Virus record (IMG/VR): IMGVR_UViG_3300033141_003544
Coordinates: 32,001-96,000 of that record
Strand: one strand, 5' to 3'
Source of the DNA: a virus
DNA length: 64,000 nt
The notes beneath the pieces are model-generated. The model did not search any database and was not told the DNA's origin. It was given only the letters and a program-made list of their open reading frames with translations. Below are positions 13,282-28,366 of the stretch, piece after piece. A program made the position numbers and the translations under genes. Numbering within the stretch: the first letter of the stretch is position 1; each line of letters begins with the position of its first letter.

Positions 13282-13707
13282 TTATACTTTTTCTATTTTA
13301 ATATCTTTTAATGTTTTTACAAATAAATCTCTATCCCTTGATATATAATCTAATTTATAATAAATTTTCTTTACATTGGCTGCTATAAGTATTTTATAAC
13401 AATTGATACAAGGATTATGTGTAACATAACAAATTAATGTTTTATACCTTTTAGGTAAGTTTGCAACTGCTCCCGCTTCACTATGGATAGTCCTAATACA
13501 ATGGTTTGCATTGTGTTCTTCACTAAGTAAACAACCTACATCTTCACAATGTGGACTGCCTGATGGAGCTGAATTATAACCTACTGAAACGACTCGATTA
13601 TCTTCAGTAGTTAAAACACACCCTACTTTTAGTTTCCCACACGTACCACGTTCTTTTACTATTTCAGCCATTTTCATAAAATATTCTATTCTAGTTAAGC
13701 GGCCCAT
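13282..13707 (-). CDS. dCMP deaminase (intact copy)
   Basis: VGCV, GYN, HSE (normally HAE) and PCINC zinc motifs; ATG 13707 after GGAGG. Confidence 0.9.
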   Translation of the reverse strand: MGRLTRIEYFMKMAEIVKERGTCGKLKVGCVLTTEDNRVVSVGYNSAPSGSPHCEDVGCLLSEEHNANHCIRTIHSEAGAVANLPKRYKTLICYVTHNPCINCYKILIAANVKKIYYKLDYISRDRDLFVKTLKDIKIEKV

Positions 13708-14500
13708 AGACCCCTCCAAAAATTTTTCTTTTCCTATCCAATGAAATTGTTGAACCCTTATATAAATACACCATAAATTTCTCTACCTCGTTCATTGAAT
13801 TAACCCTATAACTATATAAAGGGTTTTTTCTTCCTTTTATTGAACAATTAACCCATCCAAAACCTACTATTTCTTTAATGAAATTCATAACTGATTCAGT
13901 TCCTGCAATAGATACTATCCCTCTTTTGTATTTATTAAGATGAATACAACCATCACCGTCGAAATACCCTCTTATCCAATGTCTAATCAAATCCATTGAA
14001 ACATTTTTTGGGGGCTCTAATACCAAAGACTTTCTTTCTAAAATACCTTTATTGATTAAATCATAATACATTTTATTTGAGCTTAACAGATATCTGTATC
14101 GATAGAAGACTTTACCGTTTAATTTTCTTGATCTCTTACGAGGTTCAAAATTGGCTTCAATTGCTTTTCCAAATTTCTTCAAATGTTTTAAATCTTTTTC
14201 AGCTAAACTTAAATTTATTCTCTTCCTTTTATATCTTGGAGGTGGTGTATATAAACTCCCATCTGCTGCAATCATTCCCAACCAATAAGCTTTTTCTTCA
14301 TTATCAATTGTTTCAAAATAATTTTCATTAAAGGATTTCCATTTACCTTTAGTAGGTAAATGAGATAAGTTATATTCTTTTATTCTTTTTGCAATAGCTT
14401 GTCGTTTCTTTAACCCAAATACCTTTGCTATTTCTTTTTGAGAATGTTTACCGTCTAATAGTTTTTTAAGTTCTTCTGAATTAACTTCTACTTTCTTCAT
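13691..14500 (-). mobile_element. free-standing LAGLIDADG homing endonuclease with N-terminal HTH
   Basis: AYWLGMIAADG and WIRGYFDGDG motifs. Confidence 0.9.
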
Positions 14501-14865
14501 TCATCTCTTTCCTCTGGAATCAAAGTCATGCTATGGGCTTGATCTTCACCGTTAACTTTTAATCCTTTAATTAATTTTAATTTTACTAATATTTTTTTGA
14601 ATTTAGCTTTTTCAATACAGTGTACAGTTCTTATACAATGACCTTTATACAACAAACAACCTTTATCAAGACAGTGGTCTTGTCCTGGAGGGGCCCCGTT
14701 GTAACCAATTGCCGTTATTCTGTTATTTCTAGTTATCACACACCCTGCTTTTATATGACATGTTGACCTTTCTGCAGCTAAGTCTGCTATTTTTAGATAG
14801 TAAGTGATTCTATTCATTCTAGTTCTGTTGATAGCTGGTTTTGTCCTGTCCACAAGATTCCTCAA
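14497..14865 (-). pseudogene. N-terminal fragment of a second dCMP deaminase with an unrelated 40-aa tail
   Basis: AERSTC..AGCVI..GYNGAP..HC..HCIRTVH, then similarity stops; no catalytic Glu in register and no PCxxC. Confidence 0.75.
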
Positions 14866-16286: not shown

Positions 16287-17237
16287 TTATCTGATATTTG
16301 ATAATTCTTTTATAGAATCTTCATGTCTTAAAATCTGTTTGCAGATGTCCTCTATTATCTGAGGAACAATACTTGACCCCGCTTGATCATATTGTAAGGT
16401 TTTAGGCCCATAAAATATAAAATCATCAGGAAAGCCCTGACAACGAGCAACTTCTCTAACGGTTAAAACTCTTGACTCCCATGGGTGAACATATTGTGTC
16501 CTGTGACTTGTCATTGTAGGAGCGGGTTTATCAGGGTCCAATCTCCTATTATTTTGAGTCCCATAATAGGACTCGCCAATTTTTAGTTTTCTAAAACCCT
16601 CTGCCCTTTTTTGTGAATGTTTAGAAGGTATATGATTTGGTGTATTATCTAAATCTTTCAAAATATCTTTTAAATTTTTAAAATTTTTTATTTTTGGATT
16701 AGGAAACCAATATTTAAAATAACCTAAATCTCCTATTATAAAAAGTCTTTCCCTATTTTGTGGTACATTATAATATTTAGCATTTAAAAAATGTTTCTGA
16801 ATATTATAACCTTTTAACTCTATAAATAATTTTTCATTAGTAGTATAGTTGATTAAGGATACACCATATTCGTTGATCCATATACTATTAGCAACTGAAG
16901 TTAAATTCTCTAAAATAAAATATTTGGGTCTTCTTTTTTGTATTACTTTTAAAAACTTGTAAATTTCCCAATCTTCTATTTTAAAATCTAATCTATTTTT
17001 CTTTCTAACGGCTAAATTACTAAAAGCTTTACAAGGAGGTTGGCCTATAATAATATCTACTTCACGATCATCAAACCAACTTATCTCCTTTGAAATACAA
17101 ATATCATTAAAATTTTTAAAAATGGTTTCTGATATCGACCAATCTCTATTGTCCTCTAAATAAACGGGTTTCATTCCACACCATTTTGCCCCTAATAATC
17201 CGGAACCGATACCACCATAAACACTACCTATTCTCAT
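16287..17237 (-). CDS. DNA cytosine-5 methyltransferase
   Basis: YGGIGS (motif I variant), GQPPCKAFS, LENL, PQNRERLFIIG, LTVREVARCQGFPDDF. Confidence 0.92.
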   Translation of the reverse strand: MRIGSVYGGIGSGLLGAKWCGMKPVYLEDNRDWSISETIFKNFNDICISKEISWFDDREVDIIIGQPPCKAFSNLAVRKKNRLDFKIEDWEIYKFLKVIQKRRPKYFILENLTSVANSIWINEYGVSLINYTTNEKLFIELKGYNIQKHFLNAKYYNVPQNRERLFIIGDLGYFKYWFPNPKIKNFKNLKDILKDLDNTPNHIPSKHSQKRAEGFRKLKIGESYYGTQNNRRLDPDKPAPTMTSHRTQYVHPWESRVLTVREVARCQGFPDDFIFYGPKTLQYDQAGSSIVPQIIEDICKQILRHEDSIKELSNIR

Positions 17238-17419
17238 ATTTTCCTTTCTATTATACTAAAATCTATATCTTCAAAATCTCCCATAATATTATTAACTATT
17301 TCAATTTCTTTATAGGGTATATCTGAATCTTTTACCATTTTCGACCATAATTCTTCTAGAGCAGTTTCTAATTCATTTCTGGCGTTTATAACTTTTCTGT
17401 AAGAAATGGGAGTTATCAT
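17234..17419 (-). CDS. hypothetical protein
   Basis: Translationally coupled on both sides. Confidence 0.55.
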   Translation of the reverse strand: MITPISYRKVINARNELETALEELWSKMVKDSDIPYKEIEIVNNIMGDFEDIDFSIIERKI

Positions 17420-19366
17420 CTAATATATTTCCTTATTCTTATAATCCTTTTTATATATATGTAAACTATTGCAAAAATAAGTTAAATCTCCAACTGTCAC
17501 TCCTATTTGTTTAGTTATATATTGTTGAAGTTTTATTGCTAATGCAATATCATTAGGAAAATGAGTAACAAAATCACAAGATCTCATTATATAGGACATG
17601 TGAAGTTTGTTCTCCCTTCTGAGAAACATATACCCCGTTGAACAGTTATGAACTGAAGCTCCTAATAAAGAATAACTTTCATCTTCTTCTACTTCTAAAT
17701 TATAAACCTTTATTGATTGAATATATTTTTTTACTTCTATTCCTTTTACTTTATAATAAGCTTTACCTTTATTAAAACTTACTGTATTAATATTATTGTT
17801 TTTCCAATTGCCTTTTATATGAGGAAGACCAGGATAACATAGTTCTTTTAAAGATCTATTGGATGTGGAGATACTATATGAAGAATGATAAAAATGTCTC
17901 CCCTCAATTGCATGTCCGGATCTAATAGGTATGAACTGTATACTATAACTCACATTATTTCTTAGCAGTATTAGGCCTAATTGCAAAATTAGATCTTTAG
18001 AACAAGAAGTAAAAGTTAAACGACCTGTTTTTCCTGTGGATTTTTTATTTTTTGTTACATACCCATCTCCTCTTGTATATCCTACAACAATTTGGAGTTG
18101 CTTTTTAGGAGGTAAATACATAAATGATTTTGGAATAGTTTTTGTGTGAGAGTGTGAACCTCCAAACAAATTCCAAAAAAGATGACCTACTATTTTAGAA
18201 GCATAAGTTATTCTATAATTATTACCATCCTCTTTCCAATTAAATTTAGGTTTTTTTAATCCAAACTTTTCTAACATTATTTTTGCTACATCTTCACCAT
18301 ATTTTTCTTCTCCTTTTGCAAAATAAAATTTTATTTGTGATTTCCCATCTCTACCTCCCGTTGCACAACCGTCTGCTAAAAAGTAACCTACTAACCGTAA
18401 AAAATCTTCATCTACTTGGATTATTTTAGGAATACTATGACAGTTCTTTTTATCAGCAGCTTTAATAGTTTTTGAACTTATCTCAATAAAATCTTCAGTG
18501 TTAATATAATCTGTTATATTTAAATATTTTATATCTTTTCTACTATTATTAAAGTTAAATTCTATATAATCTCCTTCTTTAATTTCAGAAGCACTTAACC
18601 ATTTTGATTTAACTTCACGAATATTCTTAGAGGTTATTTTTTCTTTAGAGGAATAAGTTAAAATAGGGTGGTCTTTTGTACAAATTATATCTTCCCCGCC
18701 ATATCTTTTTATTTTTATAAGTTCATTCGTTTCATTCTCAAAAATTTTATTGACTCTTTTAAATCTACCTTTATGTGTTAAAACTTTATCTCCTTCTTTA
18801 ATATTTTCAATATTTGTCCATTTAAAATCCCTTGTAATAATTTTTGTTTTAACTGGAAAGCATGGGATACGTTTTTTACCACCCATATTTTCTAAATCAA
18901 ATACATTATTGTGTATTTCTATTATTGCTTGTCTTGTATTTGGTCGATCATGTAATTCTTGTATAACTTTTGATAACTGGGGTTTTATTCTTTCATTGTA
19001 GGTATAACTGAATTTATTTTGACCTTTTTCATCTTGATGTAAAAACTCTTGCCAAACGTCCTTTCTTAAAGTCCAAGCCATACCTGGATTTACAAAATGT
19101 TGACTAACCCTTTCTTTGGCTTCAGCTTCTATCCATTCCATTGACAGACCTGCATTATATTCTTTATTAATATAATCTATCATTTCCTTGATTCTCTCTC
19201 CTGTTTTTAATATAAAACAAGTCCCTCTAATTTCTTTTGTATAATAATCCTCATCCCCTTCAATAATTTTATCTTGCATAGAATAACCTTTTACTTCAGT
19301 ACCCATTTCAATAAGGTTTCTTTCTTCCTCTTTTATCATTTGAAGAGTATCACTATATATTCTCAT
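17420..19366 (-). CDS. thymidylate synthase-fold protein 1 (dCMP-modifying type), intein-containing
   Basis: YTYNER, TRQAII, RIP^C, MRSCDFVTHFPND, SLHIY; about 242 aa after splicing. Confidence 0.85.
   Translation of the reverse strand: MRIYSDTLQMIKEEERNLIEMGTEVKGYSMQDKIIEGDEDYYTKEIRGTCFILKTGERIKEMIDYINKEYNAGLSMEWIEAEAKERVSQHFVNPGMAWTLRKDVWQEFLHQDEKGQNKFSYTYNERIKPQLSKVIQELHDRPNTRQAIIEIHNNVFDLENMGGKKRIPCFPVKTKIITRDFKWTNIENIKEGDKVLTHKGRFKRVNKIFENETNELIKIKRYGGEDIICTKDHPILTYSSKEKITSKNIREVKSKWLSASEIKEGDYIEFNFNNSRKDIKYLNITDYINTEDFIEISSKTIKAADKKNCHSIPKIIQVDEDFLRLVGYFLADGCATGGRDGKSQIKFYFAKGEEKYGEDVAKIMLEKFGLKKPKFNWKEDGNNYRITYASKIVGHLFWNLFGGSHSHTKTIPKSFMYLPPKKQLQIVVGYTRGDGYVTKNKKSTGKTGRLTFTSCSKDLILQLGLILLRNNVSYSIQFIPIRSGHAIEGRHFYHSSYSISTSNRSLKELCYPGLPHIKGNWKNNNINTVSFNKGKAYYKVKGIEVKKYIQSIKVYNLEVEEDESYSLLGASVHNCSTGYMFLRRENKLHMSYIMRSCDFVTHFPNDIALAIKLQQYITKQIGVTVGDLTYFCNSLHIYKKDYKNKEIY
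17645..18862 (-). mobile_element. 406-aa cis intein with LAGLIDADG endonuclease at the TS catalytic Cys
   Basis: CFPVKT start, TKDHP, LVGYFLADG and GYTRGDG, ends VYNLEV...SVHN followed by Cys. Confidence 0.93.
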
Positions 19367-19404
19367 TTCTTATTATTCCTTTTGCAATTTTCATAAATAC
19401 GCAT

Positions 19405-19785
19405 TTATATTACTTCTTCTTCAGTTAATATATTCTTATCTGGATCTCCAATAAAAACTATATTGTTTGGATATGCATGTTTCATAAATAAATTTCTTAT
19501 TTCTTTAACTGAATAACCTGCCAATCCAGTTCCTATAGCTGTTAAAAGAAATATTTTATCTTTATTTAATCTAGCAAAATTTATGAAATCAGATATATAA
19601 TTATCTATTATATTTAATGGGAGTGTTTTCAAATTTTCATCTTTTGTTGGAATAGCATAAGAGTTACCTTGTATACCTTCTCCAATACCTTTAATTGCTC
19701 CATAATACTTATAAGCATATAGGGCTGCACCCCTACCATGTTTTCCTGCTTTGTTAGAACCAAAAACAAAAATATTAGATTTCAT
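19405..19785 (-). CDS. conserved phage protein, A1S_2505-like (FVFGSN..G.HG.GAA family)
   Basis: IFVFGSNKAGKHGRGAA, SYAIPTK, IGTGLAG. Confidence 0.75.
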   Translation of the reverse strand: MKSNIFVFGSNKAGKHGRGAALYAYKYYGAIKGIGEGIQGNSYAIPTKDENLKTLPLNIIDNYISDFINFARLNKDKIFLLTAIGTGLAGYSVKEIRNLFMKHAYPNNIVFIGDPDKNILTEEEVI

Positions 19786-19791
19786 AAATTC

Positions 19792-19878
19792 TCATTTCTT
19801 GATATTTTTCTTTTTCTTCTTTTTCTTTTTGATTAATTTATCTCTTTGTATAGGAAAAGCTTGTGATGTTACAGCCAT
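19792..19878 (-). CDS. 28-aa poly-Lys peptide MAVTSQAFPIQRDKLIKKKKKKKKNIKK
   Basis: Strong SD AAGGAGG before ATG; fills the gap between genes. Confidence 0.6.
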   Translation of the reverse strand: MAVTSQAFPIQRDKLIKKKKKKKKNIKK

Positions 19879-19896
19879 AATTCCCTCCTTTAAATA

Positions 19897-20148
19897 TTAT
19901 CCCACTCTTTTTAACTCGTTAATGATTTCTTTAACTAAATTCTCCATAAATTCTCTTGTCCACCAATCTTTGAATTGTCTTATAAATTCTTTTGCTCCGT
20001 CTTTTGCTACAATCTTATCATTAAATGTTTCCATATCACAATCAAGAGAATCAAGAATATCTTGATCTACTTTATATATGGAAATCAAGGCAACAGTTTG
20101 GCGATTTATAAGTATTGGTCTACGAGATTCTTCATTTATTATACCCAT
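19897..20148 (-). CDS. hypothetical protein
   Basis: SD GAGG plus ORF. Confidence 0.6.
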   Translation of the reverse strand: MGIINEESRRPILINRQTVALISIYKVDQDILDSLDCDMETFNDKIVAKDGAKEFIRQFKDWWTREFMENLVKEIINELKRVG

Positions 20149-20167
20149 AATTTCCTCATTTGATACT

Positions 20168-20201
20168 ATTCAGCGTTGGGTTTAATTACCCAACGCTGAA
20201 T
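20168..20201. terminator. 14-bp stem hairpin, probable terminator or processing site
   Basis: ATTCAGCGTTGGGT-ttaatt-ACCCAACGCTGAAT. Confidence 0.6.
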
Positions 20202-20241
20202 CCCAGTTATACATGCGCCTGTGAATAGTTGTCGCAAATCC

Positions 20242-20346
20242 TTATTTCTTTTTATTTGGTTTACAATTACCCCTTTTTAAACCTCCCCTTGGTTTACTTG
20301 GTCTTGGTGACTGTTTTCTTGGTCCCCGTCCGTCTCGGTCTGGCAT
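20242..20346 (-). CDS. 34-aa basic Gly/Pro/Arg-rich peptide (DUF5320-like N-terminus)
   Basis: MPDRDGRGPRKQSPRPSKPRGGLKRGNCKPNKKK; SD AAAGGAGGT; own promoter upstream. Confidence 0.7.
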   Translation of the reverse strand: MPDRDGRGPRKQSPRPSKPRGGLKRGNCKPNKKK

Positions 20347-20430
20347 ATTAGACCTCCTTTACTCAAGATATGTTCCACATTTACTACAATATTGATTAGC
20401 TGAAGATGATTCTTATAAATAATTTATTAT

Positions 20431-20459
20431 AATATACAACAAAGAAAAAACAATGTCAA
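20431..20459 (-). promoter_or_regulatory. sigma70-type promoter TTGACA-17-TATATT
   Basis: Consensus match in an intergenic region. Confidence 0.75.
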
Positions 20460-20493
20460 CCTATTTCAATTGAATTTTCATTTTTATTTATTA

Positions 20494-21426
20494 CTAAGTA
20501 CTCGTTGTAATTGTATATTCACCATATTGTTTTTTCCAAAGACTTCGTAAAAAGTTACTTAAAAACAAAATAGGTTGAGTTTTATAGGAATAATTTATCT
20601 CCCAAGGGAATATATGTTTTTCTTCATAATGCCATGCCATATCGTATTCAATATCTTTTCTATTAGTACCTAAAGATTGTGTAAAATCCTCAAAATTATA
20701 CTCATTATTTTCCGGATAGTTCTGTTTTGCATTATTTAATTCGAATACTGTATTTTCTATATAACTTCTTTCTTTCCTTTTTCCTTTTCCTTTTTTAATT
20801 ATCCTTTTTTTATGACAGTAATAGTGAGAAGCTTTAAGATAAAAATTACCAGGTTCAAGTTCTAACATCGATGCGATATACCGTTGTAAGAAAGTGTGGT
20901 GTAAGACATCGTAAGGGAGAAGGTTGATAACATCCGAGCTCCTCATGTTGACAAACAATAACACTTTGTTTTCTCTTATCAAGAAATGAAGATTTAATGT
21001 GCAAGGAGTTCTGGGTCTTGGATGTATTATATCTAAATGTTCTGGTTGCCATATACTTATTATTGCTTCCCGTTCTTGCCTGGCTTTTAGCTTTTTCAAC
21101 ACTTTGGGAATAGCTGGGACTAAGTACTCGCTGTAATTGTATATCCACTTTCCACCTTCCTTCTCAAGTTTACGTTTCCAGTTTGGACGAAATAAATAAG
21201 AAGTTCCTGGATTTCGATAATAAGGGTCTAGTCTATCTGACAATTCTGCAAATCCCCATTTCCAATTTTTATTCAAAGAAATAAGACAGTTGTTTGGATT
21301 AGTTAAGCAAAAATCTAAATTTACTTTATCTATAGTCTTACCTAATTCCTTACCATTATGAAGAATATCTTCTAAAATCTCAATATATATGCTCTGAAAG
21401 TTATCATTTATTGGATACATATTCAT
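20494..21426 (-). CDS. thymidylate synthase-fold protein 2 (dCMP-modifying type)
   Basis: NPG..Y..R..W, REAIISIW, RTPCTLNLHFLIR, MRSSDVINLLPYD. Confidence 0.8.
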   Translation of the reverse strand: MNMYPINDNFQSIYIEILEDILHNGKELGKTIDKVNLDFCLTNPNNCLISLNKNWKWGFAELSDRLDPYYRNPGTSYLFRPNWKRKLEKEGGKWIYNYSEYLVPAIPKVLKKLKARQEREAIISIWQPEHLDIIHPRPRTPCTLNLHFLIRENKVLLFVNMRSSDVINLLPYDVLHHTFLQRYIASMLELEPGNFYLKASHYYCHKKRIIKKGKGKRKERSYIENTVFELNNAKQNYPENNEYNFEDFTQSLGTNRKDIEYDMAWHYEEKHIFPWEINYSYKTQPILFLSNFLRSLWKKQYGEYTITTST

Positions 21427-21586
21427 TCTTTTTCATATTCATTTAGTTTATCTAATATTTTTGTTAATAAACCATTAGTACTAAAAACTCCTATGCATAT
21501 TATAATTAAAACTAATAATTCCCAATTCATTTTTTATTCTCCTCTTTTTTAAAAAATTCTTTGAATTGTTCAAGTTCAGTCATTTT

Positions 21587-24226
21587 TTACCTCTCGTTAT
21601 AGAGTTTTACTAATTTTTTAACCATTATTTCTAGACTCATATTTTCTTGAATATAATTTGATAAGTCAAAGTTTGAATTGTATTTTTCCATCTCATTTTC
21701 CAAAGTTTCGACAGTTATATTTTTATTGTTTGTTCTTCCCGAACAATTTTTATTTAAATATTTTTTAAATATATTTTTTGAAGATACTATACCATCCATT
21801 CTATTAGGGTTAGCGACAATAACATTTTTACCCATAGCTAACCCTTCATAAACGGACCTACCAACTCCTATAACAACATCTGCTTCATTCAATATATGAT
21901 GAACATCCCATGTATATTTACCTCCCAAACCTATTATAGTTAAATTAAGGTTCAGTTTTTCTGCAAAATGTTCAAATACATTCTTTTCTATTTTACCTTC
22001 TGAAGATCTGACATGATTGTTGAGAACAATCAAGTTTCTAGGATTTAAGAAATTCCGTCTTATTTTTTTAAATTTATAAATATCAATTCCATTATGTATA
22101 ATAGGTATTTCTTTTTTATAATTTGATAAATTTTGTAAGTTAGACCTCACCTCTTTTGAAACTCCAACTAATTTATTAATATAAGGATAAGTATTAGATT
22201 CTGGGGTTTCTATATCCTCTAAAACTCCATGAGATACATATAATATTTTATTTTGTACTTTTAAGTCTTGTGATACGGATAAAATATCTCTTAAACAACT
22301 CCGATGATGGCAATGGATTATATCTAAATTGTGGTTTTGAATTACATATCTTAAACTTCCTATATCTGGTACGATATTAACTCCCAAATATTTCAATCTT
22401 TCTGAAACGTCTCCATGGTGTTGAGAGTAAACAAAAACCTCCGAACCATTATCTTTTAAAACCTTAGCTAAATCGTACACATATCTTTCTGTTCCTCCAT
22501 AGTATTTTAAACTCACATTTGTTATAAGAATTTTATCTGGAACTCCTTCTATTTTTATTTTCTTCTCCCCATACCATTTGTTTATCAGTTTATTATAGTT
22601 ATCTTTTTGAATTTTAGCCCATGTAGAATTTCTTTCTCTCTTCCAAGTATGATATACTACTACATCATTAGCTACCAATAAATGATAACCTGCTTTAGTT
22701 AATTTCATTGATAAGTCGTCATCATCACAGCCCCCAGAATTACCAAATAAACTGTTATCCATACCTCCAACTAGTTCCCATGCATCTTTTCTAATCGCTA
22801 TACAAAAACCAATCAACAAATCCGTTTCAATATAATTACCCTTATTCAAGTCTGCATTCTTTTTTGAAAACTCTACTATACCATCAATATCTAAATCTTT
22901 TGGCATTTCTATGTATTGGAGTCTATGGTGATTAACGTTGTCAGATACAGGACCCACCGCTCCAACTTTTCTATCCACCCTAAAATACTTTATTAATTCC
23001 TCCTTCCAATTATAAGTAAAAATAAGATCATAATTACCAAAAATCAATATATTGTTTTTAGCTAATTTCGCCCCTTGATTACAAGCAGCAGTCCAACCTA
23101 TATTAGTATCATTTATCACGGAGTGGATATATGGACTCTGTTGGGAATATTGACTAATTAACTCTTTTAAATCATCTGATGGTTCATTTGCAATTATAAT
23201 AAGTTCATCCTTGTAATTCAACCATTCAATAGCAGTTTCTATAGTTATTTCTGTATCTTCTATCTTATTCCCATAAGTTACAATTATAAGTGAAACCTCA
23301 TCAAAACTCATCTCTTCTTTTCCCCTACCCGCCTCTTCATCCAATCTGTCAAAAAGATCGGTATCAAAAGTTAAACCTTTTGCTTTGTATGACCTTTCTA
23401 AAGCCATTCTAACATTAAATATAAAATCATGACGTGTTTTATCATCTCTTTTTACCCATGCCTCTTCTAATAATTCAATACATTGGTCATGTTTCTTTAA
23501 ATTTTGACATAATATCCCTGTCTCATATAAAGTGTTAAAGTTTCTGGTTGTTTTTAATTTTTCCATCCCATAATTGTAATACTTTAATTGTTTTTTTAAT
23601 AGGTCTTCTTCTTCATGTTGAATATGGTGAACAGTTATTTCAGGTCCAACATCAACAGGAACTATATGTTTACAATCGGGGTCTATTTTCATAATAGACT
23701 CCCTGACTTGTTCATGTATTTTCCCGGTCCAATATAGTTGAGGAATATTCTGAAATAAACGTAGTTTATATGAAAAATTAAACCATTTAAATTTATACTT
23801 CTCTGCAAATATCCCCTTCGCCAATCTATTGGTACCGTAAATTCTGTTAGTATAATTGATGGTTGCAACCATATAAGCTAAGTTTTGGGGCTGTTTAGTT
23901 GCCCATTTGATCTTATAGTGTTCCCAATCTGGTAATATTTCATCAGCGTCAATAGAAAAGATCCACCCACAAGTAGCTTTTGAATCCGCGTAATTTCTAG
24001 CAGCTGCATAATCATCTATCCATTCAAAAGAATATACCTTATGAGTATATTCTTTTGCTATTTCTAGTGTTTTATCTTTAGAACCAGTATCAACTATAAC
24101 TATTTCATCAGCTATAGGAACAATACTGTCTAGACACCTTGCCAAATCAGCCTCCTCATCCCTTACAATTAAATCAAAGGAAACTGTTGAAGGAACATTG
24201 AATTTTTTGTATAGACTATTGGCCAT
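21587..24226 (-). CDS. multidomain glycosyltransferase (GT2-TPR, second GT2, GT4-like)
   Basis: IVDTGSKD..ARN..DADE; VSLIIVTY..NIGWTAACNQG..DDDDLS; GGTERYVYDLA..EGLAMGK. Confidence 0.9.
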   Translation of the reverse strand: MANSLYKKFNVPSTVSFDLIVRDEEADLARCLDSIVPIADEIVIVDTGSKDKTLEIAKEYTHKVYSFEWIDDYAAARNYADSKATCGWIFSIDADEILPDWEHYKIKWATKQPQNLAYMVATINYTNRIYGTNRLAKGIFAEKYKFKWFNFSYKLRLFQNIPQLYWTGKIHEQVRESIMKIDPDCKHIVPVDVGPEITVHHIQHEEEDLLKKQLKYYNYGMEKLKTTRNFNTLYETGILCQNLKKHDQCIELLEEAWVKRDDKTRHDFIFNVRMALERSYKAKGLTFDTDLFDRLDEEAGRGKEEMSFDEVSLIIVTYGNKIEDTEITIETAIEWLNYKDELIIIANEPSDDLKELISQYSQQSPYIHSVINDTNIGWTAACNQGAKLAKNNILIFGNYDLIFTYNWKEELIKYFRVDRKVGAVGPVSDNVNHHRLQYIEMPKDLDIDGIVEFSKKNADLNKGNYIETDLLIGFCIAIRKDAWELVGGMDNSLFGNSGGCDDDDLSMKLTKAGYHLLVANDVVVYHTWKRERNSTWAKIQKDNYNKLINKWYGEKKIKIEGVPDKILITNVSLKYYGGTERYVYDLAKVLKDNGSEVFVYSQHHGDVSERLKYLGVNIVPDIGSLRYVIQNHNLDIIHCHHRSCLRDILSVSQDLKVQNKILYVSHGVLEDIETPESNTYPYINKLVGVSKEVRSNLQNLSNYKKEIPIIHNGIDIYKFKKIRRNFLNPRNLIVLNNHVRSSEGKIEKNVFEHFAEKLNLNLTIIGLGGKYTWDVHHILNEADVVIGVGRSVYEGLAMGKNVIVANPNRMDGIVSSKNIFKKYLNKNCSGRTNNKNITVETLENEMEKYNSNFDLSNYIQENMSLEIMVKKLVKLYNER

Positions 24227-24228
24227 AG

Positions 24229-25008
24229 TTATAGATCCTTTATTGACAAACCTGATTCCTTTAATAGGTCATGAAATCTAAGTAACGTCCTTTTGATACT
24301 TTGCATTTTAATTTCCTTAACAACATTAATATCTGAATATTTCTCCTTAAATAATTCCAGCATATGTTTAAATTGTGGATTCCAAGCTGTTATCCCATAC
24401 TGTCTGAGAAATAAAGCAATAGTTCCTGCCCAACCTATAGTTATAAAACTATTCATTATAATACAGTTTAATTCAAAACACCTACATTTTGAGGTTTTTT
24501 CAACTTCTTTGATAATCTTTCTAATTAATAAAAAATCCATAAATAATTTTGGTAAAACTTCAGTATTTCTAAAAACTAATTGAGCTGAGAAATCACTCAT
24601 AGTGGTCTTTAAAAAATAAAGACTGTCCAAGCATTTCAATTTTGCCGTTTTATCATAAGGATCTCTTGAAAAGTATACAACCCCTCTTGCTTGTTTTGGG
24701 TGGAAATCCTTTAAATTAGTTTTTAATATACCTAGTTGTGCCTGCACTCTGTCGTCAAAATAGTCATGTTCTAATTTTGACATTTTCATTTTATAACTAT
24801 ACTTACTGTAGTGAAAAAAATCTCTTACAATACAACCATCTTGACTAACCAACTTTATTTTTTCCGCACTTCCATATGTCAATCTTTTAAAAATATAAGG
24901 ATAGTTATATTGAACTCCATCACCACAACATATATCATTAACAAGATTAAACCATAAAATATCTAAACCTTCTCCTTCTACTATATTGATTTGCTTCATA
25001 TTCTTCAA
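24229..25008 (-). CDS. divergent thymidylate synthase-fold protein 3
   Basis: Order R-GVVYF...KCLDSLYF...VFRNTE..KLFMD parallels TS R/PC/RSxD..D; weak similarity. Confidence 0.5.
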   Translation of the reverse strand: MKNMKQINIVEGEGLDILWFNLVNDICCGDGVQYNYPYIFKRLTYGSAEKIKLVSQDGCIVRDFFHYSKYSYKMKMSKLEHDYFDDRVQAQLGILKTNLKDFHPKQARGVVYFSRDPYDKTAKLKCLDSLYFLKTTMSDFSAQLVFRNTEVLPKLFMDFLLIRKIIKEVEKTSKCRCFELNCIIMNSFITIGWAGTIALFLRQYGITAWNPQFKHMLELFKEKYSDINVVKEIKMQSIKRTLLRFHDLLKESGLSIKDL

Positions 25009-25020
25009 AAATAAAGGTCT

Positions 25021-25842
25021 TTATTCCTCTTTCCTTATCTTTTTGTTAAACTTATCAACACTTTTTAGTATATCCATATCTAAACCTATTTCTCCCATTT
25101 CTCCAATAAGTGCCTCAACATCTTTTGGAAGACAATTTCCACCATATCCCAATTTTCCATCATGACCTGGAACATCCATATGACTGTTTCCTATTCTCAT
25201 ATCTGCTTGGACTAACTTCTTAACTTCATTATAATCAACACCTAGTTTATTACATATCAAATTTATCTCATTAAAAAATGAGATCTTTGTAGCGAAAAAA
25301 GCGTTACAAGCATATTTTACTAACTCAGCAGTAGTAAAGTCTGTAATAAAAATTGGAGTATAATCAAACCTTAATCTAAATAAGTCTATCACTTTTTTAA
25401 CTATTATATCTGTTGAACCTGTAGAGTTGGCCAATATTATCCTTGTTGAGTTTATAAAGTCTAATTTAGCAGTTCTAGCTGTTAAAAATTCTGGACTGTA
25501 GATTAGATTAAAACAAGGATATGTTTTTTGCAAATAATCCATAGTTTTTGGAATTACTGTACTTTTAACGATAAATATTTTATTTACATGGTCTTCTGGG
25601 TCTATTGTTATTTTTCGGAAAACATCTTCTAACTCATAGGGGTAGAATAAATAATGCTGAGTAGGAGTGGATACACATATAAAAATAAAATCCCCATGGT
25701 CTATTACATCATCAAAGTTATCAAAACCTTCTTTATATTTATCATAAATTTTAATATCCGCATGCAAAGAAAAACCATGTGCAATAGCTGACCCTACATA
25801 ACCAAAACCTATTATAGAAACTTTTGGTAATCTGTTCTTCAC
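25021..25842 (-). CDS. UDP-glucose/GDP-mannose dehydrogenase family protein (short phage form)
   Basis: GFGYVG, CVSTP, KSTVIP, SPEFL, AELVKY..NAFFATKISFFNE, GYGGNCLPKD. Confidence 0.92.
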   Translation of the reverse strand: MKNRLPKVSIIGFGYVGSAIAHGFSLHADIKIYDKYKEGFDNFDDVIDHGDFIFICVSTPTQHYLFYPYELEDVFRKITIDPEDHVNKIFIVKSTVIPKTMDYLQKTYPCFNLIYSPEFLTARTAKLDFINSTRIILANSTGSTDIIVKKVIDLFRLRFDYTPIFITDFTTAELVKYACNAFFATKISFFNEINLICNKLGVDYNEVKKLVQADMRIGNSHMDVPGHDGKLGYGGNCLPKDVEALIGEMGEIGLDMDILKSVDKFNKKIRKEE

Positions 25843-25869
25843 AAAAATACCTCCATATCTTTCTATTGT

Positions 25870-26172
25870 TTACGTCTTTTTAAAATTTGTAATATCTTTT
25901 GCTTCTATTATTTCTAAATCACTTACATAACGATATAGGTCATAAGTCTTGTATCCACTTGTTCCTGTTACGGGTACATCAAACCTAATAAAATAATATA
26001 AAGGAGGGTCTAATTTATTACCAAATATTGAAACAGTTTCCCTTAAAAGTCCATGATCAATATTATCTTTAGCAAATGACTTGTGTAATTCTTTAAAAAG
26101 TGAGTCATTCCTCCTTAATGGATTAGTTACTAAAAATACTCTTGTTAAACCTTCTTCATTGATTTCTCTCAT
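25870..26172 (-). CDS. hypothetical protein
   Basis: TAATG-coupled ORF. Confidence 0.55.
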   Translation of the reverse strand: MREINEEGLTRVFLVTNPLRRNDSLFKELHKSFAKDNIDHGLLRETVSIFGNKLDPPLYYFIRFDVPVTGTSGYKTYDLYRYVSDLEIIEAKDITNFKKT

Positions 26173-26684
26173 TACATCCTCGGTAAATGTTTTTTAAGGT
26201 TGACATCTAACAGGTTGACTGTGACAAATAGATTATTGCAAGCGTCTGTCACATTGTCTCCTATTGCGTCATATCTCTTTCCTCTATTACTTGTTATTTT
26301 TGCAATTATTTTCCCATCTTTATTTGAATTTAAAATTATTTTAATAGTTTGTCCATGTCTATTAATCATTTCATCATACAAAGGGTCTAAGATTTTTTTC
26401 CCGGTTTTTTGTTCAATAAAATAAGCACTATTTTTTATAGCTTGAAAAGGGATCGGTCCTGCATTAGGGACTACTCTAGTTTCAATTGTTTTTAACATAT
26501 TTGTAATTGCCCAAATTAATTTACGACTATAACCCCACAACCATTGTCCTCTGGATTTTATACAAGCTATAAAGACCCCAGGAGACCTATGTTCCAAAAA
26601 CAGTTCAATATCTGAATAAGAGTTGTTCTTTAATTCTCTTGTCAGTTGATCGTTTACAGCATAACCTCTTTTATCGAAAATCAA
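26172..26684 (-). CDS. hypothetical protein
   Basis: ORF in operon. Confidence 0.55.
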   Translation of the reverse strand: MIFDKRGYAVNDQLTRELKNNSYSDIELFLEHRSPGVFIACIKSRGQWLWGYSRKLIWAITNMLKTIETRVVPNAGPIPFQAIKNSAYFIEQKTGKKILDPLYDEMINRHGQTIKIILNSNKDGKIIAKITSNRGKRYDAIGDNVTDACNNLFVTVNLLDVNLKKHLPRM

Positions 26685-26686
26685 TA

Positions 26687-27202
26687 CTATTTCACTCCTA
26701 TTTTGTCAATAATCCCATAAGTTATTGCTTCTTCTGCAGACATATATTTCGTATTTTTCATGTCTTTTTTTACTTTTCTTCTGGTATAATTTGAATGTTT
26801 AATAATAGCATTTGTTATAAATTCATCTTGTATTATTGTGTCTTTTATATGTCTTTGGACTACTCCGATATCACCACTCGTTTCGGCCCAAACGGAATGT
26901 ATCATTATCCTGGAATTTGGAGTAGCATACCTCTCTCCTTGAGTTCCTCCTGCCAACAATACTGTTGCCATACTCCAAGTATAACCTATACAAATAGTTC
27001 TTATTTTTACAGTTGATTCTTGCATTACATCATAGATACTTATTCCAGCTGGGACGGAACCTCCTGATGAACTGATAAATAAAGTAATAGGTTCATCAGA
27101 TTGATCTTGGAGATACAATATCTTCTCAATAATGTCTACAGACACTATTGGATTTATTTCTCATACTAAAAAAAGCCTTCGTGGGTTTAAAGAACTTAAC
27201 AT
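26687..27202 (-). pseudogene. clpP: ClpP-family protease with in-frame TGA at 27161-27163
   Basis: SD GGGAG and ATG 27202: MLSSLNPRRLFLV*EINP...ISSSGGSV..GISIYD..SMATVLLAGG..RIMIH..MSAEEA..YGIID. Confidence 0.75.
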
Positions 27203-27214
27203 GTATCTCCCTAT

Positions 27215-27844
27215 TTAATATTTTGATCTTTGTCTAAACTCGTTAATTATGCTTTTTCTTATATACAGATTATAAATATCGTCTGCTGTTAAATCTAATC
27301 TTAGACATAGGTCTAAAAAAGCAACTAATACTTTATTCAAGCATAAATAGAATTTGTTTTTGTCTGTAAGTATTTGAGATTGTTTCCACGGTTTATTTTT
27401 TAATACGTTTCCCACTAAACCTAATCTGTAATGGATTTCATGATAGTACTCTTTCACATCTCTCCGATCTCCTATAAAAGGATGTCTTGTATTAAAATAT
27501 TCCTCTAAACTTGGAATTTTCTTTTTATCTATTTCAGTTCCAGTTAGTTTAAATATTTCTACTATAAAATGGAGAGCATCACTTAACTCTTCTAAGTAGT
27601 GAAGTGGATCTTTGTGTATTATTCTAGCTTCCCAACTTTCAGACAATTCTTCCGCAACTCTCCAGAGAAAATCTTTGATAATAGTTTGATTTTCTTTTAT
27701 ATCTATATCGAAAGGCCAGTCAGGTAACCCTTCAATAGTTTTGTATTCCTTCATTAGTTCTTCCTGCCTTTGGAATATAAGTTCCAATCTATTGTTTTTC
27801 TTTGGGGCAGGAATTTCATTTTTATTAACGTCTTTTATATTGAT
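27215..27844 (-). CDS. all-alpha dNTP pyrophosphatase (dimeric dUTPase / dCTPase-like); probable ATC start
   Basis: EELSE, EELSDALHF, KNKPWK, Y..K..IN.FRQ..KY; frame open back to SD AGGAGG at 27850-27855. Confidence 0.8.
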   Translation of the reverse strand: MNIKDVNKNEIPAPKKNNRLELIFQRQEELMKEYKTIEGLPDWPFDIDIKENQTIIKDFLWRVAEELSESWEARIIHKDPLHYLEELSDALHFIVEIFKLTGTEIDKKKIPSLEEYFNTRHPFIGDRRDVKEYYHEIHYRLGLVGNVLKNKPWKQSQILTDKNKFYLCLNKVLVAFLDLCLRLDLTADDIYNLYIRKSIINEFRQRSKY

Positions 27845-27859
27845 AATAACCTCCTATCT

Positions 27860-28366
27860 TTATTGTAGATTTCCTTTTTTAAATTCTTTTAATATTTTAG
27901 GACTTAAAGGTAATCCCCATTTTTTGCGCAAAATAATAATAGACATTGTAGCATAGTTTATCATGTCAATAAAAGCGTCTTCTACTCCTTCAAAATATAG
28001 TCTTGCTAAATCCACTGTTTTTATTACTTTTCCACTTGATTTCTCTATCATTTCAATTTCGGAGTTTATTTGTACATTATTGCTATAAAAATCTACCTCA
28101 CTTTCATCATACAATTCACCTTCAAGAAATTTTTCAATCCTTGAGATTTTCATTTTAATTTTTTCCATAACTTTCCCTACAGCAGCTTTTTGGTCTAAAT
28201 CCCCATAACTTCTCTTTCCATAACTGATATGTTTAGGAATCATAACCCTAAAAGCTTCTTTTAGTATATCTTTAAATATATCATCATAATACTCTGATCT
28301 TTCAACTCTACAGTCCTTTTTCATTTTCTCTATCTCTTCTTTAGAAAAATCTAGTTCGTTATCCAT
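27860..28366 (-). CDS. Nmad1/DUF1599-like nucleotide-modification-associated protein
   Basis: K...YG, K..R, EDAFIDMINYA. Confidence 0.6.
   Translation of the reverse strand: MDNELDFSKEEIEKMKKDCRVERSEYYDDIFKDILKEAFRVMIPKHISYGKRSYGDLDQKAAVGKVMEKIKMKISRIEKFLEGELYDESEVDFYSNNVQINSEIEMIEKSSGKVIKTVDLARLYFEGVEDAFIDMINYATMSIIILRKKWGLPLSPKILKEFKKGNLQ

What the first reader, a model, noticed from the sequence alone, without database searches (positions are those of the whole stretch)
16287..28366. Candidate new cytosine hypermodification pathway
About 12 kb of same-strand genes encode a C5 methylase, three thymidylate-synthase-fold proteins, a three-domain glycosyltransferase placed between two of them, an NDP-sugar dehydrogenase, an all-alpha dUTPase/dCTPase-like enzyme and an Nmad1-like protein. 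Established: T4 uses a dCTPase, a TS-fold dCMP hydroxymethylase and glucosyltransferases to make glucosyl-hmC. Inference: this phage makes a 5-substituted cytosine, possibly carrying uronic-acid or multi-sugar groups. The gene combination matches no pathway I can name. No dNMP kinase is visible in the window.
Basis: partly seen in the sequence, partly recalled or inferred. Interest (0 to 1): 0.78.

Follow-up and report, generated by a model that had tools for sequence, protein, structure and literature searches.

The report
Phage cytosine-modification genes, three TS-fold paralogues
An uncultured marine phage carries three different thymidylate-synthase-like enzymes that all look built for cytosine nucleotides, next to a DNA methylase, a large sugar-transferase and a sugar dehydrogenase, so it probably replaces cytosine with a modified, perhaps sugar-bearing, base of unknown identity.

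Summary
On the minus strand of 16287-28366 lie a C5 DNA methylase, two Pfam-recognised TS-fold genes and a third cryptic TS-fold gene. One of the Pfam-recognised genes is interrupted by an intein exactly at its catalytic Cys. The third is seen only by predicted structure and motif register. The stretch also holds a GT2-GT2-GT4 fusion, a short two-domain NDP-sugar dehydrogenase, an all-alpha dUTPase/dCTPase-family protein and a weak Nmad1-like protein.

All three TS families keep the catalytic Cys and Arg166, and carry Asp at the dUMP/dCMP-discriminating position (E. coli N177). They carry Arg/Lys where ThyA has L143 and T4 gp42 has Asp. None has the D169N mark of 5-hydroxycytosine synthases.

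The three paralogues, the methylase, dCMP deaminase and a UDG-fused PolA are syntenic in 14 marine viral contigs. The glycosyltransferase and dehydrogenase are not found there. Glycosyltransferase homologues occur only on contigs of the same lengths as those carrying TS homologues of the two closest relatives.

Best reading: pre-replicative C5 modification of dCMP, which is likely, followed by DNA glycosylation, which is only inferred. This is a new variant of the known ThyS-plus-glycosyltransferase paradigm, not a new kind. The product is unknown. No dNMP kinase or TET gene is in the record. This scan had already noted two-TS-fold modules on other phage DNA.

The parts
16287..17237 (-). C5 cytosine DNA methyltransferase (316 aa) with all catalytic motifs. 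Its gene follows TS1 directly in all relatives that reach that far.
   Evidence: PF00145 E 1e-38; TIGR00675. Homologues were found in 13 of 14 related loci. The start overlaps the TS1 stop in L014, L018 and L019.
17420..19366 (-). TS1: a T4-gp42-like TS-fold enzyme (242-aa extein) interrupted by a LAGLIDADG intein at the catalytic Cys. N-extein 18863-19366, intein 17645-18862, C-extein 17423-17644.
   Evidence: PF00303, Intein_splicing and LAGLIDADG_3; boundaries. hhalign to E. coli ThyA and T4 gp42 gives prob 97-98%. Family-wide residues: Cys146, Arg166, Asp169, Asp at 177, Arg at 143.
19405..19785 (-). A1S_2505-family phage non-structural protein (126 aa). Its role is unknown and it is not shown to belong to the pathway.
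   Evidence: NF049995 E 2e-39; phrog_2072.
20494..21426 (-). TS2: TS-fold enzyme (310 aa) with a roughly 100-aa C-terminal extension. In relatives it sits next to DnaB rather than here.
   Evidence: PF00303. PDB alignments show C-x20-RSxD-x7-D. All 20 family members keep Cys, Arg166, Asp169, Asp177 and Arg/Lys143. Synteny.
21587..24226 (-). Three-domain glycosyltransferase: GT2 with a helical TPR-like linker, a second GT2, and a GT4 domain. The acceptor is unknown.
   Evidence: Pfam; NCBIfam. Homologues P0029 and P0030 lack the GT4 part. Their longest contigs are 21,016 and 124,063 bp, the same lengths as for the TS2/TS3 homologues, so they are probably on the same contigs.
24229..25008 (-). 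TS3: a cryptic TS-fold protein (259 aa) with invariant Cys126, Arg147, Glu150 and Asp158 in TS register.
   Evidence: Only 8 homologues plus 14 loci. AF2 model; Foldseek and VIA hits are TS-fold only. Residue conservation.
25021..25842 (-). Short two-domain NDP-sugar 6-dehydrogenase (273 aa). The GxGxxG motif and catalytic GGNCLPKD are present. There is no UDP-binding C-terminal domain.
   Evidence: PF03721 + PF00984 only. TIGR03026 scores 171.6 against a cut-off of 189.8, covering model positions 70-297 of 413. The short form is a large family with NTP-transferase, SDR and GT2 fusions.
26687..27145 (-). ClpP-like serine protease (152 aa). It lies inside the stretch and is probably unrelated to base modification.
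   Evidence: PF00574 E 4e-42.
27215..27787 (-). All-alpha NTP pyrophosphatase of the dimeric dUTPase/dCTPase family (190 aa). Candidate dCTP/dUTP-clearing enzyme.
   Evidence: PF08761 36.7 bits. 48% identical homologue in L019 next to a Tmk-like kinase.
27860..28366 (-). Weak Nmad1/DUF1599-like protein (168 aa).
   Evidence: PF07659 below cut-off; phrog_1485; Atlas neighbours.
13282..13719 (-). A 5' fragment copy lies at 14497-14865, with a LAGLIDADG gene between them.
   Evidence: PF00383 E 5e-19 and PF14437. Conserved in 9 related loci.
9305..12982 (-). UDG-fused family-A DNA polymerase with an intein, SPO1/SP-10-like.
   Evidence: Pfam. tblastn best hits are Bacillus phages Nachito, CP-51, SP-10 and SPO1-like at about 27% identity. 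No YerA41/phiLo-type (SP15-like) chain appears among the 60 listed PDB matches.

Best explanation
The stretch is the nucleotide-metabolism part of the replication module of an uncultured marine phage lineage. It most likely encodes pre-replicative replacement of cytosine by a C5-substituted cytosine.

Proposed steps, all inferred unless marked otherwise:
1. The all-alpha NTP pyrophosphatase hydrolyses dCTP (and dUTP) to the monophosphate.
2. One or more of three TS-fold paralogues attack C6 of dCMP with their conserved Cys and transfer a one-carbon unit from methylene-tetrahydrofolate to C5. What the sequence shows is Asp/Glu169 retained and Asp in place of N177.
3. TS1, which resembles T4 gp42 in length and motifs, most likely makes 5-hydroxymethyl-dCMP. 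TS3 is a very divergent TS-fold protein. It also appears immediately upstream of TS1-type genes in Clostridium and gut phages. It may be a partner subunit or make a second adduct.
4. A kinase phosphorylates the product and the UDG-fused PolA incorporates it. The kinase could be the host's or lie in the missing ~8% of the genome. Relatives encode a Tmk-like one at this spot.
5. The C5 DNA methylase, whose gene overlaps TS1 in three relatives, caps residual unmodified C.
6. In this phage and probably its two nearest relatives, a multi-domain glycosyltransferase then decorates the hydroxyl on DNA. The donors would be NDP-sugars, whose supply the short dehydrogenase and an upstream SDR/DegT/deacetylase operon diversify.
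For: - TS fold of all three proteins.
- Active-site register: Cys146, Arg166, Asp/Glu169 and Asp at 177 are invariant in 10, 20 and 19 family members.
- Asp177 and non-His147 are the marks of cytosine-modified contigs, where they co-occur with an all-alpha NTPase and dCMP deaminase (PMC8670742). The meaning of N177D is also given in PMC13326640.
- None of the three reaches any ThyA equivalog cut-off, and no ThyX is present.
- Synteny of TS2, TS3, TS1, methylase, deaminase and PolA in 14 loci, with Tmk-like kinases beside the NTPase or TS3 in L017 and L019.
- Closest cultured TS1 homologues are C. perfringens phages at 40% identity. There the gene sits in a kinase / dUTPase / 249-aa protein / TS / PolA module. 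The 249-aa protein aligns to TS3 with Cys, Arg-x-x-Glu and Asp in register.
- The GT lies between TS3 and TS2. GT homologues have longest contigs of the same lengths as those of the TS2/TS3 homologues in the two closest relatives.
- The short dehydrogenase belongs to a large family fused to NTP-transferase, SDR or GT2, so it is a real NDP-sugar enzyme.
- The upstream sugar operon is documented.
Against: - No chemistry has been measured.
- Position 143 is Arg/Lys in all three families. It is neither the acidic residue of known hydroxymethylases nor the Leu of methyl-forming enzymes (PMC13326640), so the product cannot be read off.
- No dNMP kinase is in the 105.6-kb record.
- A conserved, apparently active DNA C5 methylase is odd if every C5 is already occupied.
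- GT and dehydrogenase are not found in the 14 syntenic relatives. There the same slot holds a cellulase-like protein, 2OG oxygenases, an O-methyltransferase and a nuclease, so the slot may be a general insertion hot spot.
- The GT's nearest non-phage relatives are bacterial TPR-GT2 proteins, some annotated as cell-wall glycosyltransferases. It has no similarity to T4-type DNA glucosyltransferases.
- The polymerase resembles those of hmU-containing Bacillus phages.
- TS3 homology rests on a pLDDT-75 model and weak profile scores.
Confidence: 0.45

Rival explanations
1. Methyl route only. One or more paralogues are dCMP C5-methyltransferases, as in Xp12-type phages. The DNA carries 5-methylcytosine, topped up on DNA by the overlapping C5 methylase. 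5-methyl-dCMP deaminated by the phage dCMP deaminase may also supply dTMP, which would replace the missing ThyA/ThyX. The glycosyltransferase and dehydrogenase would act on non-DNA targets.
For: - TS1 and the DNA C5 methylase overlap in three relatives, which makes sense if both give the same product.
- No N177-type TS or ThyX is present in a 70% A+T genome.
- An intact dCMP deaminase is conserved in synteny.
- N177D alone turns ThyA into a dCMP methylase, as cited in PMC8670742.
- An earlier scan note (e1-3353031) raised the dCMP-methylation-then-deamination route for CPR bacteria.
Against: - Position 143 is Arg/Lys rather than the bulky hydrophobic residue linked to methyl products (PMC13326640).
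- TS1 ends soon after the H-x-Y motif, like T4 gp42. It lacks the ThyA C-terminal segment.
- Three paralogues are more than a methyl route needs.
Confidence: 0.2
2. Thymine-side modification. The final modified base is a 5-hydroxymethyluracil derivative, formed from 5-hm-dCMP by the dCMP deaminase or directly from dUMP. It would be incorporated by the SPO1-like UDG-fused polymerase and then glycosylated.
For: - The UDG-PolA fusion is closest to SPO1, SP-10 and CP-51 polymerases. I recall SPO1 (5-hmU) and SP-10 (a hypermodified T) as T-modified phages, but this was not checked here.
- UDG-fused PolA groups are linked to T-modified genomes in PMC13697223.
- A dCMP deaminase and a dUTPase-family enzyme are present.
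Against: - All three TS families have Asp, not Asn, at position 177.
- The polymerase is only ~27% identical to the Bacillus phage enzymes. No YerA41/phiLo-type (SP15-like) chain appears among the 60 listed PDB matches.
- No 5-hmdU DNA kinase or aGPT-Pplase was seen among the ORFs scanned.
Confidence: 0.12
3. The TS paralogues modify cytosine, but the sugar genes are unrelated. GT879, the short dehydrogenase and the upstream DegT/SDR/GT operon would form a general glycan toolkit for virion-protein or host-envelope glycosylation that happens to have inserted in a variable slot of the replication module.
For: - The GT and dehydrogenase are not found in 14 syntenic relatives, whose slot carries unrelated auxiliary genes.
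- The GT's N-terminal domain is nearest to bacterial TPR-GT2 proteins and weakly matches the SunS-family peptide S-glycosyltransferase model (42.9 bits against a cut-off of 350).
- A separate 7-kb sugar operon lies next to the structural genes.
Against: - The GT start lies 3 nt after the TS3 stop, and the gene sits between two TS-fold genes.
- GT homologues probably occur on the same contigs as TS2/TS3 homologues in the two closest relatives.
- ThyS-GT adjacency is a recognised signature of DNA glycosylation.
Confidence: 0.3

Closest known systems
T-even phage glucosyl-hydroxymethylcytosine pathway (T4 gp56 dCTPase/dUTPase, gp42 dCMP hydroxymethylase, gp1 dNMP kinase, cd dCMP deaminase, alpha/beta-glucosyltransferases)
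   Same: - There is an all-alpha NTP pyrophosphatase.
- There is a TS-fold enzyme of gp42 size with Cys, Arg-Ser-x-Asp and Asn-Asp, with Asp at the N177 position.
- dCMP deaminase is present.
- A sugar transferase gene sits beside the TS-fold gene.
   Different: - There are three TS-fold paralogues instead of one, and no canonical Td.
- Position 143 is Arg/Lys, not Asp.
- There is no gp1-type or Tmk-type kinase in the record.
- The transferase is a GT2-GT2-GT4 fusion, not a T4-type GT-B.
- A DNA C5 methylase is part of the conserved set.
Arabinosyl-5-hydroxycytosine clusters of RB69, DLP3, HY126 and the hexosyl-5hoC cluster of RL38JI (PMC13326640)
   Same: - The cluster logic matches: dCTPase, TS homologue acting on dCMP, Tmk-like kinase (in relatives), several glycosyltransferases, and phage-encoded NDP-sugar enzymes.
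- HY126 AfhB is the top structural match of TS3 (Z 10.2, within 1 Z unit of MilA and many ThyA chains) and the best PDB sequence match of the TS1 C-extein.
   Different: - The diagnostic D169N substitution is absent: Asp in TS1 and TS2, Glu in TS3.
- No arabinose-5-phosphate isomerase, HAD phosphatase or kinase-uridylyltransferase genes were seen.
- The sugar enzymes here are of the Ugd / SDR / DegT type.
ThyS-associated GT-A/GT-B DNA glycosylation clusters mined from metaviromes (bioRxiv 10.1101/2023.12.21.572611)
   Same: The glycosyltransferase is adjacent to a TS homologue, among replication genes and methyltransferases.
   Different: - No 5mYOX/TET is present.
- The GT domains do not show the JGT/TarP-like R...DDD...EDY motif on reading the sequence.
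- There is a triple TS paralogy.
Kinase / all-alpha NTPase / two TS-fold genes / PolA module of Clostridium perfringens phages (CPAS-15, CPD4) and gut phages, noted earlier in this scan (e1-3777712)
   Same: - The TS1 orthologue is 40% identical.
- Immediately upstream lies a ~250-260-aa protein that aligns to TS3 with the catalytic motif in register.
- An NTPase and a kinase lie upstream and PolA downstream.
   Different: - The marine lineage adds a third paralogue (TS2) and a conserved C5 methylase, and here a GT and a dehydrogenase.
- The TS3 link is statistically weak (hhalign E ~1e-3, prob 15-19%).

Membership tests
Canonical thymidylate synthase ThyA | Asn at E. coli position 177 and a score above the ThyA equivalog cut-offs | tested here: not met
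   All members of all three families have Asp at 177. NCBIfam ThyA models score 16.9-36.4 bits for TS2 and 19.1-64.2 bits for the L019 TS1 orthologue, against cut-offs of 108-427. TS3 gives no hit.
TS-fold pyrimidine C5-transferases (ThyA / gp42 / MilA superfamily) | TS fold with the catalytic Cys and the Arg166-x-x-Asp/Glu169 motif | tested here: met
   TS1 and TS2 match PF00303, with hhalign prob 96-98% to ThyA and gp42. TS3 is assigned by model only: Foldseek E 2.5e-5 and VIA Z 10.2. Residues are invariant across the families.
T4-type dCMP hydroxymethylase (gp42) | Asp at position 177 | tested here: met
T4-type dCMP hydroxymethylase (gp42) | Acidic residue at the L143 position, three residues before the catalytic Cys | tested here: not met
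   Arg in TS1 (10/10), Arg/Lys in TS2 (20/20) and Arg/Lys in TS3 (19/19). T4 gp42 has Asp.
5-hydroxy-dCMP synthase (RB69 gp48 / DLP3 gp80 / HY126 AfhB) | Asn in place of Asp169 (D169N) | tested here: not met
   Asp in TS1 and TS2, Glu in TS3. The PDB 9iqu sequence shows RSQN.
T-even style C-replacement pathway | Phage-encoded dNMP kinase able to phosphorylate the modified dCMP | tested here: not met
   There is no PF02223 hit and no match to the L019 kinase. No P-loop ORF of kinase size was found in the 105.6-kb record. The record is ~92% complete and a near-identical contig of 115 kb exists, so the gene may lie outside it.
T-even style C-replacement pathway | dCTPase of the all-alpha NTP pyrophosphatase superfamily | tested here: inconclusive
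   PF08761 scores 36.7 bits. The only PDB sequence match is weak, to Campylobacter dimeric dUTPase. Substrate preference cannot be read from sequence.
C5-MT / 5mYOX (TET) / GT post-replicative cytosine hypermodification | TET/JBP-family dioxygenase next to the C5 methylase | tested here: not met
   PF12851 is absent from the whole record at E<=1.
UDP-glucose 6-dehydrogenase (Ugd) | Three domains, including the UDP-binding C-terminal domain PF03720 | tested here: not met
   Only PF03721 and PF00984 match. TIGR03026 covers model positions 70-297 of 413 and scores below its cut-off. The catalytic Cys motif is present. Most of the 150 best relatives listed are also about 255-300 aa long.
Nmad1 (PF07659 / DUF1599) | Match at or above the Pfam gathering score | tested here: inconclusive
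   21.7 bits against 25, over 21 residues. Supporting leads come from phrog_1485 and the Atlas.
T4-type DNA glucosyltransferases | Sequence membership in the T4 alpha- or beta-glucosyltransferase families | tested here: not met
   Pfam, PHROG and NCBIfam scans return only generic GT2/GT4 families.

The most novel reading that the evidence does not exclude
The three conserved cytosine-type TS-fold paralogues do not all make hydroxymethyl- or methyl-dCMP. At least one, most plausibly the cryptic TS3 family acting alone or as a heterodimer with TS1, would create a C5 adduct not yet described. The conserved Arg/Lys at position 143 points that way. In this phage the base would be further decorated with a uronic-acid or 4-amino-pentose sugar made by the short dehydrogenase plus the SDR/DegT enzymes. 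That would be a new hypermodified cytosine in an abundant marine phage lineage.
Probability: 0.2. Interest if true: 0.8.

Novelty: new variant of a known kind. Interest (0 to 1): 0.6.

Why it matters
- Modified bases decide whether restriction enzymes, CRISPR nucleases and sequencing chemistries can act on phage DNA.
- The finding defines a marine phage lineage in which three TS-fold enzymes with a cytosine signature are conserved together with a DNA C5 methylase.
- It exposes an unannotated TS-fold family (TS3) that sequence profiles miss. This family seems to pair with TS1-type enzymes in phages of unrelated hosts.
- If the paralogues have distinct products or act as heterodimers, the known reaction range of the thymidylate-synthase fold would widen.
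- The short, UDP-domain-less sugar dehydrogenase family is large and unstudied.
- All of this is testable with published E. coli co-expression plus LC-MS assays.

Tried and rejected
- megablast of the 12-kb stretch against 50,697 phage records found no match.
- Single-protein scans of IMG/VR with TS3, the GT and the dehydrogenase found nothing. Only the TS3 alignment retrieved loci.
- TS3 gave no match as a sequence or profile against PDB, nor by tblastn against phages. hhalign of TS3 against TS1, TS2, gp42 and ThyA was not significant.
The contigs of the two closest relatives (P0003/P0011/P0029 and P0004/P0030) could therefore not be read. 'Same contig' rests on identical longest-contig lengths only.
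- The single metagenome scan picked generic GT2 patterns. It returned 80 loci that matched only the generic GT2 part; tblastn with this phage's proteins found no TS genes in them.
- The SP15-like T-glycosylation reading was rejected. The polymerase is SPO1-like, and no YerA41/phiLo-type chain appears among the 60 listed PDB matches.
- The TET route was rejected. The 5hoC route was rejected on D169.
- I considered that the truncated dehydrogenase is a pseudogene. This was rejected because the short form is a large family.
- Rfam found nothing in the window and there are no tRNAs.
- Iyer et al. 2013 (PMC3763556) is not held, so statements about Nmad1 context could not be checked.
- The second structure-prediction job and the second Atlas call were left unused.

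Full report
**Setting.** The window is bases 32001-96000 of a 105,577-bp IMG/VR phage record that is about 92% complete and has about 30% G+C. All genes of the finding lie on the minus strand, inside a long leftward replication and nucleotide-metabolism block. Besides the genes of the finding, this block contains:
- SbcCD-like genes, RecA and a flap nuclease;
- a UDG-fused family-A polymerase with an intein;
- a primase, a DnaB with an intein, a split SF2 helicase and an NAD ligase.

The 12-kb stretch has no near-identical counterpart among 50,697 phage records.

**Observation.** Pfam, PHROG and NCBIfam scans confirm these genes:
- a C5 DNA methylase (16287-17237);
- TS1 (17420-19366);
- TS2 (20494-21426);
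- an 879-aa GT2-GT2-GT4 fusion (21587-24226);
- an NDP-sugar dehydrogenase (25021-25842);
- a dimeric-dUTPase-family all-alpha protein (27215-27787);
- a sub-threshold Nmad1/DUF1599 match (27860-28366, supported as a lead).

TS1 carries a LAGLIDADG intein whose +1 residue is the TS catalytic cysteine. The spliced extein is 242 aa, close to the 246 aa of T4 gp42.

An AlphaFold model built from its 8 homologues has pLDDT 75. All 50 listed Foldseek PDB rows are TS-fold chains. T4 dCMP hydroxymethylase and the HY126 dCMP hydroxylase AfhB score about E 2.5e-5. VIA gives Z 10.2, rmsd 3.6 over 159 residues, with MilA and many ThyA chains following at Z about 9. In BFVD its best matches are uncharacterised ~260-aa phage proteins, followed by annotated TS and dCMP hydroxymethylases.

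**Active sites.** Pairwise HMM alignments to E. coli ThyA, L. casei TS and T4 gp42, with family alignments of 10, 20 and 19 sequences, give this picture:

| E. coli position | TS1 | TS2 | TS3 |
|---|---|---|---|
| Cys146 | invariant | invariant | invariant |
| Arg166 | invariant | invariant | invariant |
| 169 | Asp | Asp | Glu |
| 177 | Asp | Asp | Asp |
| 147 | Ser/Thr | Thr | Leu |
| 143 | Arg | Arg/Lys | Arg/Lys |

- PMC13326640 and PMC8670742 state that N177D switches the enzyme from dUMP to dCMP.
- They also state that Leu143 correlates with methyl products and Asp/Glu143 with hydroxymethyl products.
- D169N marks flavin-dependent 5-hydroxy-dCMP synthases.
- So all three paralogues read as cytosine-nucleotide enzymes that keep the folate-binding acidic residue. 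They are not ThyA (far below the equivalog cut-offs) and not 5hoC synthases.
- Their product class cannot be assigned, because position 143 is basic.
- TS1 also shares the MEW, PG, VWQ, SLHxY and Asn-Asp motifs and the short C-terminus with gp42. A hydroxymethyl product is therefore the most economical guess for TS1.

**Conservation.** A profile of TS3 retrieved 14 marine IMG/VR loci. tblastn and blastp in both directions show a conserved gene order:
1. DnaB, TS2, a 216-aa protein and the SF2 helicase;
2. a variable stretch;
3. TS3, then a variable slot, then TS1 and the C5 methylase;
4. primase, dCMP deaminase and the UDG-PolA.

Further points:
- TS1-type hits are in all 14 loci and the methylase is in 13.
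- The methylase start overlaps the TS1 stop in L014, L018 and L019.
- In L017 and L019 a thymidylate-kinase-like P-loop kinase sits just upstream of TS3. In L019 it is beside the 48%-identical dUTPase_2 homologue. L018 has a trimeric dUTPase.
- The GT, the dehydrogenase, ClpP and the Nmad1-like gene were not found in these 14 loci.
- In L014 and L017 the slot between TS3 and TS1 carries a PF12876 cellulase-like protein and an SNase-like nuclease. L014 adds a 2OG-Fe(II) oxygenase there, and L017 a TylF-type methyltransferase. L017 also has a 2OG oxygenase upstream of TS3.
- Compared with its relatives, this phage has TS2 moved next to TS3, with the GT between them and the dehydrogenase in front.
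- The only close GT homologues are P0029 and P0030 (566-573 aa, GT2-GT2 without GT4). Their longest contigs are 21,016 and 124,063 bp. These are the same lengths as for the closest TS3 and TS2 homologues. They are therefore probably on the same contigs.

**A wider TS1-TS3 pairing.** The closest cultured TS1 homologues are in Clostridium perfringens phages (CPAS-15, CPD4 and others) at 40% identity over the full length. In CPAS-15 the gene order is 'shikimate kinase', 'dUTPase', a 249-aa protein annotated as a WcaC glycosyltransferase, the TS homologue, three small ORFs and PolA.
- The 249-aa protein and its gut-phage relatives lie immediately upstream of TS1-type genes.
- They align to the TS3 profile over 149-169 columns with the Cys, Arg-x-x-Glu and Asp(+11) positions in register. 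Support is weak (hhalign E about 1e-3, prob 15-19%).
- The pairing suggests, but does not show, that TS3-type proteins are dedicated partners of TS1-type enzymes. TS is an obligate dimer that builds each active site from both subunits. TS1 and TS2 have lost Arg127 (Gln and Glu).

**Sugar genes.** The 273-aa dehydrogenase keeps the GxGxxG motif and the GGNCLPKD catalytic motif but lacks the UDP-binding domain.
- It is not a broken gene. An exhaustive search found 555 representative clusters at E<=1e-30, and most of the 150 best listed are 255-300 aa long.
- Fused members carry sugar-1-phosphate nucleotidyltransferase, SDR epimerase/dehydratase or GT2 domains, or inteins. The family therefore works in NDP-sugar metabolism.
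- About 25 kb upstream the genome has a DegT aminotransferase, an extended SDR, a SAM methyltransferase, three GT-B type genes, a DUF2334/deacetylase and a GT2.
- Together with the dehydrogenase, this operon resembles the Ugd-ArnA-ArnB-ArnD logic for a 4-amino-pentose. That comparison rests on my own knowledge of the Arn pathway and was also raised by scan note e1-6003643.
- Whether these sugars end on DNA, on virion proteins or on the host envelope is not shown.
- The N-terminal GT2 domain of GT879 is nearest to bacterial TPR-containing GT2 proteins. It has no similarity to T4-type DNA glucosyltransferases.

**What is absent.** The record has no TET/JBP, no ThyX, no second PRA-PH-type NTPase, and no Tmk-like or other small P-loop kinase. 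A near-identical 115-kb contig exists, so roughly 10 kb of the genome is unseen.

**Interpretation.** The best-supported reading is a T-even-like, pre-replicative replacement of cytosine by a C5-substituted cytosine made by the TS-fold paralogues. The all-alpha NTPase and dCMP deaminase would reshape the pools.
- I put about 0.75 on cytosine C5 modification of some kind.
- I put about 0.4 on the further claim that GT879 glycosylates that base on DNA.
- I put 0.45 on the combined statement as worded.
- Rivals are a methyl-only route coupled to the methylase and perhaps to dTMP supply, a thymine-side product via deamination, and sugar genes unrelated to DNA.
- The conserved, apparently active C5 DNA methylase overlapping TS1 is the least well explained element.

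**Comparison and novelty.** ThyS-plus-GT clusters are an abundant published class. dCTPase/TS-homologue/kinase/GT/NDP-sugar clusters have been worked out for RB69, DLP3, HY126 and RL38JI. The finding is therefore a new variant of a known kind, not a new kind.

The new elements are:
- the conserved triple paralogy with a basic residue at position 143;
- the cryptic TS3 family and its apparent pairing with TS1-type enzymes in distant phages;
- the conserved methylase adjacency and overlap;
- the GT2-GT2-GT4 fusion;
- the short dehydrogenase.

I found no paper describing three TS paralogues in one phage. Everything about chemistry is inference.

Noticed in passing
window 20169-20460 (minus strand): The 700-bp gap between TS2 and the A1S_2505 gene holds several features. 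There is a sigma-70-like promoter (TTGACA at 20459-20454, TATATT 17 nt downstream). There is a strong AAAGGAGG ribosome-binding site and a 34-codon ORF (20346-20242) encoding a very basic Arg/Lys/Pro/Gly-rich peptide, in sequence visibly richer in G+C than its surroundings. A perfect 12-bp stem hairpin follows at 20200-20169.
   Followed up: no
window 25021-25842 and proteins P0089-P0238: The UDP-binding-domain-less 'mini' NDP-sugar dehydrogenase is a large family. There are 555 representative clusters at E<=1e-30, mostly 255-300 aa. Fusions occur to NTP-transferase, SDR, GT2 and inteins. How it binds its nucleotide-sugar without the third domain is unexplained.
   Followed up: partly
L022:6208-6957 (Clostridium phage CPAS-15, CPAS15_0021): The protein is annotated as colanic acid glycosyltransferase WcaC. 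It aligns to the TS3 family with the Cys, R-x-x-E and Asp motif in register and sits directly upstream of the TS1-type gene. It is probably a misannotated TS-fold protein.
   Followed up: partly
window 26687-27145: A ClpP-like protease (152 aa, N-terminally short) sits among nucleotide-metabolism genes, far from the structural module. Ser, His and Asp are readable at the expected motifs.
   Followed up: no
window 28863-29645: A pentapeptide-repeat protein with a C-terminal DUF7666 region lies here. Pentapeptide-repeat proteins can mimic DNA (from my own knowledge, not checked here), so this is a candidate anti-restriction or anti-defence factor.
   Followed up: no
window 9305-12982, 17420-19366, 31337-33892, 35734-38112: At least four replication or nucleotide genes carry inteins or LAGLIDADG insertions: PolA, TS1, the split SF2 helicase and DnaB. 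A free-standing LAGLIDADG gene also splits a duplicated dCMP deaminase 5' end (13282-14865). This is an unusually heavy load of selfish elements for one phage.
   Followed up: partly
window 34255-34905: This 216-aa protein is conserved next to TS2 in all relatives that reach that far. By eye it looks like a small sigma-factor-like protein with a C-terminal helix-turn-helix. It has no Pfam hit.
   Followed up: no
L014:10893-12562, L017:8808-9548 and 10746-12671: In related marine phages the slot between TS3 and TS1 carries a PF12876 'sugar-binding cellulase-like' protein. Around it are 2OG-Fe(II) oxygenases (in the slot in L014, upstream of TS3 in L017) and, in L017, a TylF-type methyltransferase. 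These could be alternative base-decorating enzymes or unrelated auxiliary genes.
   Followed up: no
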